Source: a virus (taxonomy: Duplodnaviria; Caudoviricetes). Taken from it: a DNA stretch of 64,000 bases. The stretch spans positions 21,414 through 85,413 of the IMG/VR virus record IMGVR_UViG_3300020047_006434; one strand, given 5' to 3'. The notes under the pieces are model-generated. The model saw nothing but the letters and a program-made list of their open reading frames with translations, searched no databases and was not told the DNA's origin. Positions 35,318-40,022 of the stretch are shown piece after piece (the stretch's first letter is position 1; the number at the start of each line of letters is the position of its first letter). A program made the translations under genes and the position numbers.

Positions 35318-35641
35318 TCAATCCATCCTTTCATCTGACTCTATAACTAAATACGTGCGTCCATACAATAGCTCAAATAACAGGCTAAAGACTGCCCATA
35401 GTGCAATGGCCAGCCTAACCAACACGACCGTGGTTGCTGTGCGCCATAGCGGATCTGGACCAGACCCGACAATCAGCAGCGCTAACGCTACAGCCAGTGC
35501 GACATTCGCCGGGATGCCAACCAGGTAAAATGTGCTGCCAAAGCGCCGATAGTCAAACAGATAGCGGATCACCTTGAGCATCGCTGCGATAAAGGCCAAA
35601 AAATAGCAGCCGGCCAACAATTGCGCTAGGCAGCCTCTCAC
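35318..35641 (-). CDS. Three-TM membrane protein
   Basis: Three hydrophobic helices; GTGA coupling. Confidence 0.6.
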   Translation of the reverse strand: MRGCLAQLLAGCYFLAFIAAMLKVIRYLFDYRRFGSTFYLVGIPANVALAVALALLIVGSGPDPLWRTATTVVLVRLAIALWAVFSLLFELLYGRTYLVIESDERMD

Positions 35642-35838
35642 GGCGTCACCCCCGCCCATTGCAGAACGCTGTCAGCGTTGTAGCCAAGCACAGCCACGGC
35701 CACAATCACCACCACGGTGATGACGACAAGTTTGACAGTGCGGCCGTACTCCGCCTCAACGCTGTCGAGAAACGGCACGGGATTCAATTTGGATAAAATG
35801 GCGGCGATGGTCTGCAACAATGGAATAAGTTTTTGCAT
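35638..35838 (-). CDS. Small membrane protein
   Basis: KLVVITVVVIVAVAVLG TM; GAGG RBS. Confidence 0.6.
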   Translation of the reverse strand: MQKLIPLLQTIAAILSKLNPVPFLDSVEAEYGRTVKLVVITVVVIVAVAVLGYNADSVLQWAGVTP

Positions 35839-35860: not shown

Positions 35861-35941
35861 TGGTGGCCCAGTCGGGAATTGAACCCGCCACTATTAGGAA
35901 TGCTCCCGGCTAGCCTCACCGATAGTACAACCCCATAGACC
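35861..35941 (-). ncRNA. Degenerate tRNA-like RNA ending in ACCA
   Basis: T-arm CGGG-TTCAATT-CCCG; acceptor GGTCTAT/CTGGGCC with GU pairs and one mismatch; no sound anticodon stem (CAT at roughly the expected place). Confidence 0.4.
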
Positions 35942-35959
35942 AGCCAGGATGCCGAGTAG

Positions 35960-36077
35960 TAGTGTGGGCCGGAATCGAACCGGCGTTCAGTGATACGGTG
36001 CCCTGATAACTGTTAGCCTTACAGTGACCGCTTTGCTAGGTTCCAGCCTGCGTGTCCCCAAACCACGCCGCCACACT
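35960..36077 (-). ncRNA. 118-nt tRNA-like RNA with enlarged anticodon arm
   Basis: Perfect acceptor AGTGTGG/CCACACT, D-stem GCGTG/CACGC, T-arm GCCGG-TTCGATT-CCGGC; GGCTG/CAGTT closes a 31-nt region instead of a 7-nt loop. Confidence 0.6.
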
Positions 36078-36107
36078 TCACTGTTGAGACGCATTCTCAA
36101 TTACAGT

Positions 36108-36136
36108 ATTGTAGCATAGGTTGACGCAAAATTCAA
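36108..36136 (-). promoter_or_regulatory. sigma70 promoter upstream of the tRNA-like RNAs
   Basis: TTGAAT-17-TACAAT with TG extension. Confidence 0.6.
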
Positions 36137-39038: not shown

Positions 39039-39201
39039 CTAGTTGAGATGCATTCTCATTTACAGTATCGTGATTTGGGCGTAATTCCTTCGCGAACGCG
39101 GATTATTTGGAGAAGATACACTAAAGGTAGTAGTTGACGGTGGCGTAAGTGGAGGAATAAATGAATAGGATTCATTGTTTTCAAATTCGCCAAATTGCCT
39201 A

Positions 39202-39517: not shown

Positions 39518-39760
39518 TTGCGAGTGCAGTTAGTAACACACGAAAGGATAAGGCAGGGTATGTTTAGCGATAATGTAACATTCTGGATTTACACGAACGA
39601 CGGGCGCAAGGTTGGCGAGTTTCAGGTAGGCAAAACCTTGTTCTCCCCAGAAAACGAATGGCCAAGAATTGAGGCGACCTTGAACATTGCGCACTGGAAT
39701 ACTTGTCGCGACCTCGGTCTTGACTACAAGCAACACAACTACTGCATCGCAGCAGCGTAA
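39518..39760 (+). CDS. Small early protein, paralogue of 40934-41158
   Basis: WIYTNDGRKVGEF ... LGLD..HNYCIA. Confidence 0.65.
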   Translation: MRVQLVTHERIRQGMFSDNVTFWIYTNDGRKVGEFQVGKTLFSPENEWPRIEATLNIAHWNTCRDLGLDYKQHNYCIAAA

Positions 39761-39833
39761 GACGAAACAGGCACCCCCGCCTGTCGCTAGCTAAGTGGCT
39801 AGCCTGATGAGTCTCAAGTGAAAGGAACGAACG

Positions 39834-40022
39834 ATGAACGTAACAAGAACACCCATGAATGCTGTCGCAATCCACACCGCAACACAATGCATTGAGGTAA
39901 GCGAAGGGCAGAAGTTCTATGAAACGCCAAAGGCCATTGAACTTTGGCAAGAGGAACCAGAGCTCCGGTTCCTCAAACGGTGGTCGAAGGGTAAGCAAGT
40001 CTTATGGGTAACTGAACGTTAA
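39834..40022 (+). CDS. Small early protein
   Basis: GAAAGGA RBS. Confidence 0.6.
   Translation: MNVTRTPMNAVAIHTATQCIEVSEGQKFYETPKAIELWQEEPELRFLKRWSKGKQVLWVTER

What the first reader, a model, noticed from the sequence alone, without database searches (positions are those of the whole stretch)
35861..36136. Tandem tRNA-like RNAs with intact acceptor/T/D elbows but non-canonical anticodon arms
Seen: behind a sigma70 promoter, RNA A (35960-36077) has a perfect 7-bp acceptor, 5-bp D-stem and perfect T-arm, but its anticodon stem encloses 31 nt with an inner TAGC/GCTA helix, followed by a long variable arm. RNA B (35861-35941) keeps a T-arm and ACCA end with a collapsed anticodon stem. Retaining the elbow while losing decoding ability suggests non-translational roles. 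Inference: decoys for anticodon nucleases or tRNA-sensing defences, RNase P/Z processing signals for downstream membrane genes, or a new structured ncRNA.
Basis: partly seen in the sequence, partly recalled or inferred. Interest (0 to 1): 0.7.

Follow-up and report, generated by a model that had tools for sequence, protein, structure and literature searches.

The report
Phage tRNA-shaped RNAs without anticodons
An uncultured 85-kb phage carries, between a strong promoter and a small membrane-protein gene, two RNA genes that keep the outer frame of a transfer RNA but have no usable anticodon; related phages swap, drop or reshuffle these RNA modules, so they look like optional small RNAs of the little-studied T5 RNA2 / T4 RNAC kind, whose job has been unknown for about 50 years.

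Summary
RNA A (minus strand, 36077-35960) is real. It has a perfect 7-bp acceptor stem, a 5-bp D stem with a GG loop and a canonical T arm. Only the phage's two true tRNAs share this combination in 85 kb; 30 shuffles gave none. It is not a decoding tRNA: ARAGORN and Rfam call nothing, and ARAGORN's intron mode gives inconsistent anticodons among homologues. Close relatives keep the promoter and frame but carry three unrelated centres (A1, A2, A3), and the D stem covaries. An unrelated 38-kb phage group has the same ends around a 110-nt centre. The closest known RNA is phage T5 RNA2, annotated as a tRNA-like stable RNA of unknown function, which shares the CG linker, 5-bp D stem and G-rich D loop.

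RNA B (35945-35862) is a separate module with no D arm. It stands alone in relatives L055/L056, where five substitutions all keep the predicted pairs. Its CCA end is not conserved.

Seven arrangements of modules A, B and C occur behind the same promoter, two with no RNA at all. The modules are therefore accessory genes, not an obligatory signal for the next gene.

Function is unknown. My best guess is stable small RNAs cut out by tRNA-processing enzymes, with the centre as the working part. This scan has reported the same kind of RNA repeatedly on other phage DNA.

The parts
36108..36136 (-). Sigma-70-like promoter TTGAAT-17-TACAAT with an extended -10 (TGc), starting 12 nt after the stop codon of the upstream CHAT-protease gene.
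   Evidence: Promoter scan. The same or an equivalent promoter sits before the RNA modules in L041, L046, L050, L004 and L055.
36084..36100 (.). Palindrome TTGAGA-ATGCG-TCTCAA between the -10 box and RNA A. Probably a DNA operator; alternatively a 5' leader hairpin.
   Evidence: TGAGA-N5-TCTCA occurs twice in the window against 0.16 expected. The half-sites are invariant and the centre varies in relatives. L041 has two copies.
35960..36077 (-). RNA A (variant A1), a 117-nt tRNA-shaped RNA plus discriminator A. Acceptor 36077-36071 / 35967-35961; linker CG; D arm 36068-36050; variable centre 36049-35985; T arm 35984-35968.
   Evidence: Sequence; descriptor scan against shuffles; the unconstrained MFE keeps all three frame helices; the frame is conserved with other centres in L004, L046/L050 and the L002 group.
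35985..36049 (-). Centre ('cargo') of RNA A1, 65 nt, of uncertain fold. It includes hairpin GCUGG-AAC-CUAGC (36047-36035) and a possible hairpin ACUGU[AAGGCUA]ACAGU (36025-36009).
   Evidence: Energies and pair probabilities. No antisense match of 11 nt or more in the phage genome. The only other copy is identical (L041).
35862..35945 (-). RNA B, a tRNA-like module without a D arm. It has an 8-bp acceptor with a bulge, a long arm (5+3+5 bp) capped by loop GAGGCUA (35917-35911), and a T arm GGCGGG-UUCAAUU-CCCG(A)CU.
   Evidence: Consensus fold of ours against L055: 27 pairs, 5 one-sided changes that all keep pairing, none broken. B occurs without A in L055/L056.
35638..35838 (-). First gene of the operon, a 66-aa single-pass membrane protein with RBS GUGAGG, starting 23 nt after RNA B.
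   Evidence: ORF list; homologues in L004 and L054-L057; no PHROG or Pfam match.
39044..39058 (.). Second copy of the palindrome. 23 of 25 bases match the RNA A leader (ACTGTAAnTGAGAATGCnTCTCAAC). It lies just upstream of the -35 box of the minus-strand promoter 39038-39010.

Best explanation
RNA A is a non-decoding, tRNA-framed small RNA gene. Its constant outer frame (acceptor stem, D arm, T arm, hence an L-shaped elbow) carries an exchangeable centre where the anticodon arm would be. RNA B is a second, independent module of looser tRNA shape, with no D arm.

Shown here: both are transcribed in the same direction as the membrane-protein operon and lie between its strong promoter and its first gene. 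Close relatives hold different centres in the same frame, or B alone, or no module at all.

Inferred: the frame lets host tRNA enzymes cut the RNA out of the leader and keep it stable (RNase P at the 5' end, RNase Z or exonucleases at the 3' end, perhaps CCA addition and T-loop modification). Engineered tRNA scaffolds work this way. The centre is then the working part and binds a host or phage partner that is still unknown.

The modules share the short words GGCUA/UAGCC and GUGAG. B displays AGGCUA in a 7-nt loop. This hints at a common partner or at module-to-module pairing.
For: - Non-random frame: 3 descriptor hits in 85 kb (2 tRNAs and RNA A) against 0 in 30 shuffles. The MFE retains all frame helices.
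- Not a decoding tRNA: ARAGORN finds none and Rfam has nothing at gathering score. The best sub-threshold Rfam hit is tmRNA at 16.5 bits against a gathering score of 47, through the acceptor and T arm.
- Same promoter and frame with three unrelated centres of 65, 81 and 101 nt in ours/L041, L004 and L046/L050.
- The D stem covaries: GCGUG/CACGC, GCGU/ACGC, GCGGG/CCCGC, and GUG/CAC in the L002 group. The T stem varies GCCGG to GUCGG.
- Identical RNAs sit in different flanks: A1 in ours and L041, A3 in L046 and L050.
- B stands alone in L055/L056. All five substitutions in predicted stems preserve pairing.
- Element C has two double compensatory pairs.
- L073 and L081 carry the promoter and palindrome with no RNA module, so the modules are accessory.
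- T5 RNA2, annotated 'tRNA-like stable RNA with unknown functions', has the same CG linker, 5-bp D stem and G-rich D loop around a roughly 60-nt centre.
- The engineered tRNA scaffold has the same design, and its makers credit its success to recognition by cellular factors (PMC3753655).
- GGCUA/UAGCC occurs in 5 of 5 modules, 8 times against 1.29 expected.
Against: - There are no expression, end-mapping or stability data for this uncultured phage.
- The fold of the A1 centre is not supported by comparison, because the only other copy is identical. The whole-RNA folding energy is not unusual (z = -0.74).
- The acceptor stem was fixed by my search patterns, so its conservation across loci is not independent evidence.
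- The comparative sets are tiny: 2 sequences for B and 3 for C.
- No partner, target or associated protein was found. There is no antisense target in the phage and no Ro60, RtcB or CCA-adding enzyme gene.
- The motif enrichment is only marginal after correction for 512 words (about 0.03).
Confidence: 0.6

Rival explanations
1. Frame-as-decoy. The tRNA-like frame itself is the active part. It occupies or misleads a host enzyme that senses or cuts tRNAs (an anticodon nuclease, a tRNA-sensing defence, RNase P/Z, a synthetase). The centre only has to abolish decoding.
For: - The acceptor and T arm are identical over 24 nt in two unrelated phage groups (ours and the 38-kb L002 group), although the D arms and centres differ.
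- The frame is far more conserved than the centre.
- The phage also encodes a tRNA-Ala(UGC) and an odd tRNA.
Against: - Each centre is kept 100% identical in two different genomic contexts.
- B and C show pair-preserving substitutions and the centres share motifs. The centres therefore look selected, not free to drift.
- The 21-mer T arm plus acceptor is absent from 185,579 species genomes. The degenerate form gives only 12 hits, mostly not tRNA genes. No obvious host tRNA is being copied.
Confidence: 0.15
2. Cis-acting leader. The tRNA-like structures are processing or stability signals for the downstream membrane-protein mRNA. RNase P/Z cleavage would set its 5' end and so its translation or decay. 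The excised RNAs would be by-products.
For: - The modules lie in the 5' untranslated leader, between the promoter and an RBS 23 nt after B.
- In L046 the RBS follows RNA A by about 10 nt.
Against: - L073 and L081 have the same promoter and palindrome directly before the small membrane-protein genes of their own loci, with no module.
- Seven different arrangements occur in close relatives.
- RNAs with the same frame in the L002 group sit in a different context, after a transcription-regulator gene. T5 RNA2 lies in a tRNA cluster.
Confidence: 0.1
3. Intron-containing tRNA. RNA A is a class II tRNA-Ser(GGA) with a 26-nt intron at position 37/38, which is removed to give a decoding tRNA.
For: ARAGORN with introns allowed, at default thresholds, makes exactly this one extra call in the whole genome.
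Against: - The proposed anticodon stem has two non-pairs in five.
- Homologues with the same frame are called Cys(ACA) with an intron at position 31, Asp(GUC) with an intron at 36, or not at all.
- A73 and A1-U72 do not fit bacterial serine identity, which uses G73 and conserved G1-C72 and G2-C71 (PMC9976931).
- From general knowledge, no splicing route for a 26-nt intron is known in bacteria, and the insert is far too short for a group I intron.
Confidence: 0.03
4. Decaying tRNA genes or recombination scars. A and B are pseudo-tRNAs left by recombination and have no function.
For: - In our phage B has lost the 5'-terminal GUGGC that in L055 could pair with the 3' GCCAC as an alternative acceptor closure, next to the junction with RNA A.
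- B's CCA is not conserved.
- The fold of the A1 centre is not distinctive.
Against: - All 17 frame pairs of A are perfect.
- The D stem shows compensatory change.
- The promoter is dedicated and conserved.
- All five stem substitutions in B preserve pairing.
- The same kind of RNA is a stable, abundant species in T4 and T5.
Confidence: 0.05
5. Miniature tmRNA. The tRNA-like domain plus a very short tag frame (GCA AAG CGG UCA CUG UAA) acts in ribosome rescue or tagging.
For: The only Rfam family with any score is tmRNA (16.5 bits, E 1.2e-4 on 601 nt). A 5-codon frame starting with GCA lies in the centre.
Against: - The score is far below the gathering score of 47 and comes only from the acceptor and T arm.
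- The 3:70 pair is U3-A70, not the G3-U70 needed for alanine charging.
- A full 5-bp D stem is present, unlike tmRNA.
- ARAGORN finds no tmRNA.
- No comparable frame is conserved in A2 or A3.
Confidence: 0.02

Closest known systems
Phage T5 RNA2 (AY543070 32959-33083, misc_RNA 'tRNA-like stable RNA with unknown functions') and T5 RNA1
   Same: Full acceptor stem, T arm with a canonical T loop, a real D arm, and a large insert where the anticodon arm belongs. RNA2 also shares the unusual details of RNA A: CG at positions 8-9, a 5-bp D stem, and a G-rich D loop (GAUGGGGA, against GUUUGGGGA in ours and GAUGGUGA in L046).
   Different: T5 RNA2 has an 8-bp acceptor and lies inside a tRNA gene cluster. 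Ours lies in the leader of a membrane-protein operon. There is no sequence similarity in the centres or stems, and blastn against 50,697 phage records finds only two 21-nt tRNA T-arm matches, in unrelated actinophages. I did not score homology with a covariance model.
Phage T4 RNAC and RNAD (species 1 and 2 stable RNAs, AF158101 70908-71171)
   Same: Small stable phage RNAs made next to tRNA genes, with a T-arm-like 3' part (RNAC). They are late RNAs of unknown role (PMC3014915, PMC9697503).
   Different: RNAC has a T arm but no clean 7-bp acceptor or D arm in my folds. RNAD has no obvious tRNA frame.
Engineered 'tRNA scaffold' for recombinant RNA (Ponchon and Dardel; PMC3753655)
   Same: Identical design: acceptor stem, T and D arms kept, anticodon stem-loop replaced by an arbitrary insert. 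The makers credit its success to recognition by cellular factors, as for the naturally stable RNAs that are precisely processed, modified and protected from degradation.
   Different: It is man-made. It shows the design can work in bacteria, not that the phage RNA does so.
tmRNA tRNA-like domain (Rfam RF00023)
   Same: Acceptor stem and T arm with a large insert in place of the anticodon arm. It is the only Rfam family with any score.
   Different: Ours has no G3-U70, no tag frame or pseudoknots, and a full D stem. The score is 16.5 bits against 47.
P1/P7 C4 and P4 CI immunity RNAs (recalled from memory)
   Same: Phage small RNAs cut out of a longer transcript by RNase P through a tRNA-like acceptor end, with variable loops that set specificity among close relatives.
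   Different: There is no Rfam match to C4. No complementary target sites of 11 nt or more occur in the phage. C4 and CI lack true D and T arms.

Membership tests
Canonical tRNA (Rfam RF00005, ARAGORN) | 7-bp acceptor stem, D arm with GG, and T arm with a TPsiC-type loop | tested here: met
   RNA A meets all three. RNA B has an imperfect T arm and acceptor and no D arm.
Canonical tRNA (Rfam RF00005, ARAGORN) | 5-bp anticodon stem with a 7-nt loop (U33, purine 37) at the standard position; detected by tRNA finders | tested here: not met
   ARAGORN finds 0 genes in the window and Rfam nothing at gathering score. The hairpin at the anticodon-arm position has a 3-nt loop. The candidate 7-nt loops read AAGGCUA and GAGGCUA, with A33 and U37.
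Intron-containing tRNA | The same anticodon and intron position in homologues, with a sound anticodon stem after intron removal | tested here: not met
   Calls were Ser(GGA) i38, Cys(ACA) i31, Asp(GUC) i36 or none for RNAs with the same frame. There are two non-pairs in our stem.
tmRNA | G3-U70 alanine identity pair, a tag reading frame with pseudoknots, and no D stem | tested here: not met
   The pair is U3-A70 and a 5-bp D stem is present. ARAGORN finds no tmRNA. Rfam scores 16.5 bits against 47. No tag frame is conserved in A2 or A3.
Bacterial Y RNA / YrlA (tRNA-mimicking, Ro60-bound) | Match to the Rfam YrlA model and a nearby Ro60 (TROVE) gene | tested here: not met
   No Rfam match at E up to 10. 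There is no TROVE domain in the complete phage genome, with positive controls working.
Phage tRNA-like stable RNAs (T5 RNA2 type) | tRNA acceptor, D and T arms around a non-anticodon insert of tens of nucleotides | tested here: met
   The descriptor returns the same set of elements for RNA A, L004, L022/L046 and T5 RNA2, including the CG linker and 5-bp D stem. This rests on a descriptor and inspection, not a calibrated model.
Phage tRNA-like stable RNAs (T5 RNA2 type) | Accumulates as a discrete, stable, processed RNA during infection | not testable with these tools
   The phage is uncultured and no transcript data are available. A promoter is present.
C4/CI-type antisense immunity RNA | Loops complementary to target sites on the same transcript or phage | tested here: not met
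   No complementary match of 11 nt or more outside the gene itself. Ten-mers occur at or below chance. Seeds of 6-8 nt cannot be judged.
Aminoacylatable class II tRNA mimic (Leu- or Ser-like) | Identity set: G73 with G1-C72 and G2-C71 and a long variable arm for Ser; A73 with the U8:A14 tertiary pair for Leu (PMC9976931) | tested here: inconclusive
   RNA A has A73, A1-U72 and C8. This argues against Ser, and the missing U8 argues against Leu. Charging cannot be tested here.

The most novel reading that the evidence does not exclude
Phages use a tRNA-shaped frame as a natural plug-in expression and processing cassette for small RNA effectors. In this phage clade the effectors (A1, A2, A3, B, C) are shuffled like accessory genes in the leader of a strongly transcribed operon. 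They share a displayed word (AGGCUA or its complement) that addresses one common host or phage partner, for example a defence or RNA-processing protein.
Probability: 0.3. Interest if true: 0.8.

Novelty: new member of a known kind. Interest (0 to 1): 0.5.

Why it matters
The small stable RNAs of T4 (RNAC/RNAD) have had no known function since they were found (PMC3014915), and T5 RNA1/RNA2 are still annotated as of unknown function. This locus shows the same kind of RNA in an unrelated, uncultured phage.

It also shows how these RNAs evolve. The frame is constant, the centres are swapped, and the modules are present, absent or recombined between near-identical phages. That is the behaviour of accessory genes such as counter-defence genes, not of translation parts.

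This argues that the centre matters. It also supplies natural matched sets: same promoter and same frame with a different centre or none. Such sets could be rebuilt in a model phage-host pair to look for a phenotype. The finding also warns annotators that tRNA finders in intron mode will mislabel these RNAs as intron-containing tRNAs.

Tried and rejected
- **Canonical tRNA:** ARAGORN and Rfam are negative.
- **Intron tRNA:** the ARAGORN -i call is not reproducible across homologues.
- **tmRNA, or two-piece tmRNA made of A plus B:** wrong identity pair, no conserved tag, and B occurs without A.
- **YrlA/Ro60 system and RNA-repair or CCA enzymes:** absent from the phage.
- **Antisense regulator of the phage's own genes:** no complementarity above chance.
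- **Copy of a host tRNA:** the exact 21-mer is absent from 185,579 species genomes. The degenerate pattern gives 12 hits, mostly coding sequence or 3' tRNA fragments.
- **Cultured-phage relatives:** none by blastn.
- **The strong hairpin I first called 'H'** (CCUGGCUGGUC/GGCUAGCCGGG, the MFE of B in our phage) as a separate element: rejected, because two substitutions in L055 break it while the cloverleaf-like fold keeps all pairs.
- **Leader palindrome as an RNA hairpin only:** a second copy lies upstream of another promoter, so a DNA operator is more likely.
- **Covariance model of the frame:** not built, because MAFFT misaligned the D arms around the unequal centres. I used a descriptor script instead.
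- **PHROG and Pfam scans of neighbouring genes:** nothing useful except the CHAT domain upstream.

Full report
**Where and what.** The window is bases 21414-85413 of a complete 85,413-bp virus record with direct terminal repeats. The finding lies on the minus strand, between the stop codon of a CHAT-protease gene (36148) and a 66-aa membrane-protein gene (35838-35638). A sigma-70-like promoter, TTGAAT-17-TACAAT with an extended -10, sits at 36136-36108. It is followed by the palindrome TTGAGA-ATGCG-TCTCAA (36100-36084), then RNA A (36077-35960), then RNA B (35945-35862), then an RBS and ATG.

**Checking RNA A.**
- The sequence gives acceptor AGUGUGG/CCACACU, linker CG, D stem GCGUG/CACGC with loop GUUUGGGGA, T arm GCCGG-UUCGAUU-CCGGC, and A73 followed by CUA.
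- A descriptor script asked for a 7-bp acceptor, a T arm with a TTCRANY loop and a D arm with GG. It finds three sites in the genome: tRNA-Ala(UGC), an odd tRNA, and RNA A. It finds none in 30 shuffles.
- The unconstrained minimum-energy fold keeps all three frame helices, although the total energy is ordinary (z = -0.74).
- ARAGORN finds no tRNA or tmRNA in the window, and Rfam has nothing at gathering score. With permissive thresholds only tmRNA appears, at 16.5 bits against 47, aligned through the acceptor and T arm alone.

The observation therefore stands for RNA A: a tRNA frame without a decoding arm. With the frame enforced, however, it has probability 0.01 or less. The ensemble prefers a hairpin GCUGG-AAC-CUAGC at the anticodon-arm position plus a 37-nt irregular hairpin where a class II variable arm would be. 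Nothing tests these alternatives, because the only other copy of this centre is identical.

**Intron tRNA and tmRNA readings.** The drawn anticodon stem has two non-pairs in five. RNAs with the same frame in relatives are called Cys(ACA) with an intron at 31, Asp(GUC) with an intron at 36, or nothing. A73 and A1-U72 also do not fit bacterial serine identity, which uses G73 and conserved G1-C72 and G2-C71 (PMC9976931). The tmRNA reading fails on U3-A70, on the full D stem and on the absence of a conserved tag frame.

**Relatives of RNA A.**
- The 3' 24-mer of RNA A occurs in 8 viral contigs. A looser pattern gives 36, and 14 metagenome contigs also match.
- *Close relatives of our phage.* These keep the promoter, the palindrome, the first 12 bases and the last 26 bases of RNA A but hold different centres. 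A1 (65 nt) is in ours and L041. A2 (81 nt) is in L004. A3 (101 nt) is in L022/L046 and L050.
- The D stem changes in a compensatory way, GCGUG/CACGC to GCGGG/CCCGC. The T stem changes from G-C to G-U.
- A1 is identical in two contigs with different upstream DNA, and A3 in two contigs with different downstream DNA. Whole modules are therefore moved by recombination.
- *The L002 group.* In this unrelated set of roughly 38-kb contigs (at least 17 of them), the same acceptor and T arm surround a class II-like D arm, an 11-bp stem holding a roughly 70-nt centre and a variable-arm hairpin. The RNA lies after a transcription-regulator gene.
- No bacterial or archaeal species genome holds the 21-mer. 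The degenerate form gives 12 hits, mostly coding sequence or 3' tRNA fragments. The frame is not an obvious copy of a host tRNA.
- The acceptor sequence was fixed by my patterns, so its constancy is not evidence.

**RNA B and element C.** I searched with an alignment of the 66-aa protein. This found L055/L056, where the promoter and palindrome are followed directly by a homologue of RNA B, with no RNA A, and then by a third element, C.
- *Fold of B.* The consensus fold of the two B sequences is a cloverleaf without a D arm. It has an 8-bp acceptor with one bulge (GG.UGGUCU/GGGCCACC), a 5+3+5-bp arm capped by the 7-nt loop (G/U)AGGCUA, and a 6-bp T stem with a bulged A.
- *Support.* Of 27 pairs, five differ on one side and all five stay paired; none is broken. 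The stronger hairpin that RNAfold prefers for our copy alone is broken twice in L055, so I reject it.
- *5' flank in our phage.* Our copy lacks the 5'-terminal GUGGC that in L055 could pair with the 3' GCCAC as an alternative acceptor closure. The change lies next to the junction with RNA A. The consensus acceptor above is intact in both copies.
- *Element C.* It is present in L004, L050 and L055 and absent from ours. It has a 13-bp closing stem with two double compensatory pairs and two conserved hairpins.
- *Rfam.* Rfam matches no family at gathering score in L041 or L050, which together carry A1, B, A3 and C. The only sub-threshold hits are again tmRNA on A1 and on B's T arm.

**The locus is a mosaic.** Behind the same promoter and palindrome I found seven arrangements:

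| Contig | Arrangement |
|---|---|
| ours | A1-B-gene |
| L041 | A1-B, with two palindromes |
| L004 | A2-C-gene |
| L046 | A3-gene |
| L050 | A3-C, then another gene |
| L055 | B-C-gene |
| L073, L081 | no RNA; the small membrane-protein gene follows directly |

. The two no-RNA states argue against an obligatory cis role for the downstream gene. They fit accessory, independently selected RNA genes that ride on a strong transcript.

**The palindrome.** It occurs twice in the window against 0.16 expected. The second copy (39058-39044, 23 of 25 bases identical) lies just upstream of the -35 box of another minus-strand promoter in the divergent early control region. It is therefore more likely a DNA operator than an RNA hairpin.

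**Shared words.** Across the five independent modules (558 nt) the pair GGCUA/UAGCC ranks first of all 512 five-letter word pairs. It is present in all five modules, 8 times against 1.29 expected (p = 6e-5 uncorrected, about 0.03 corrected). GUGAG occurs 6 times against 0.55 expected. B displays AGGCUA in its 7-nt loop. A1 could do the same (ACUGU[AAGGCUA]ACAGU), but that hairpin is thermodynamically minor. A3 and C carry the complement UAGCCG. I found no partner. The A1 centre has no complementary site of 11 nt or more elsewhere in the phage.

**Comparison with known RNAs.** Earlier notes of this scan pointed me to the T4 and T5 stable RNAs, and I checked the records.
- T5 RNA1 and RNA2 are annotated as tRNA-like stable RNAs with unknown functions.
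- T4 RNAC and RNAD are annotated as small stable RNAs. Their roles are unknown and they are late RNAs (PMC3014915, PMC9697503).
- T5 RNA2 has an 8-bp acceptor, CG, a 5-bp D stem UGGUU/AACCA, a D loop GAUGGGGA, a roughly 60-nt centre and a canonical T arm. This is the same unusual set of details as RNA A.
- The engineered tRNA scaffold has the same design, and its makers credit its success to recognition by cellular factors (PMC3753655).
- The phage has no Ro60, RtcB or CCA-adding enzyme, and cultured phages hold no similar sequence.
- Literature searches found no description of a family of phage tRNA-framed RNAs with exchangeable centres. A 2026 preprint on bacterial tRNA mimics concerns other families.

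**Verdict.** RNA A is a real, non-decoding tRNA-framed RNA gene and a new member of the T5 RNA2 kind. RNA B is a real but different module without a D arm. Processing by tRNA enzymes, stability and a working centre are inferences. The function is unknown. The same kind of RNA has been reported many times by this scan on other phage DNA, so this locus adds a distinct frame subtype and a clear natural mosaic rather than a first sighting.

Noticed in passing
window 39044-39058 and 36085-36099: The palindrome TGAGA-N5-TCTCA occurs twice (0.16 expected), within a 25-nt block that is 23/25 identical. One copy lies between the -10 box and RNA A. The other lies just upstream of the -35 box of the minus-strand promoter 39038-39010, in the divergent early control region. 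It is probably the operator of a phage regulator that ties the RNA operon to early/late control.
   Followed up: partly
L004:4482-4562, L055:1403-1484, L050:342-425: Element C is a roughly 70-nt structured RNA found in relatives but absent from our phage. It has a 13-bp closing stem with two double compensatory pairs and hairpins CGGC..GCCG and GUUGGC-GAAARAU-GCCAAC. L050, which carries it, gave no Rfam match.
   Followed up: partly
genome 6236-6308 and 8158-8231 (outside the window, upstream of it): The phage encodes a normal tRNA-Ala(UGC) with G3-U70. It also encodes an odd tRNA-like gene whose anticodon loop has 6 nt (ARAGORN 'tRNA-?(aa)'). That gene's T stem, GCCGG/CCGGC, is the same as in RNA A.
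   Followed up: no
L012, L026, L029, L031, L033 (near the pattern match in each): Several AT-rich phage contigs carry a roughly 45-nt mini tRNA-like element: acceptor AGUGUGA/CCACACU joined to a T arm by a 9-nt linker, with no D or anticodon arm, ending ACUA or ACAA, in at least three contigs just after a conserved ORF.
   Followed up: no
L014:4578-4686 (minus strand): A Leu-like frame (AGUGUGG, UG, GCG-GAAUUGGUAAA-CGC) has an anticodon-like loop CCAAGAA and a second T-arm-like hairpin (UAGGUUCAACUCCUA) inside its long variable region. L020 has the same frame with no anticodon arm at all (61 nt).
   Followed up: no
window 39650-39900: Other first-stage notes report a hammerhead ribozyme at 39760-39814. 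Rfam gives no hammerhead match there at E up to 1, and nothing at gathering score anywhere in the window.
   Followed up: partly
L061 and L066 (near the pattern match): Two bacterial MAG contigs hold only the 3' half of a tRNA-Met-like gene (CUCAUAAC...CCACACUACCA or ...CCACACUACGA) with no 5' half upstream. They look like attachment-site remnants of integrated elements.
   Followed up: no
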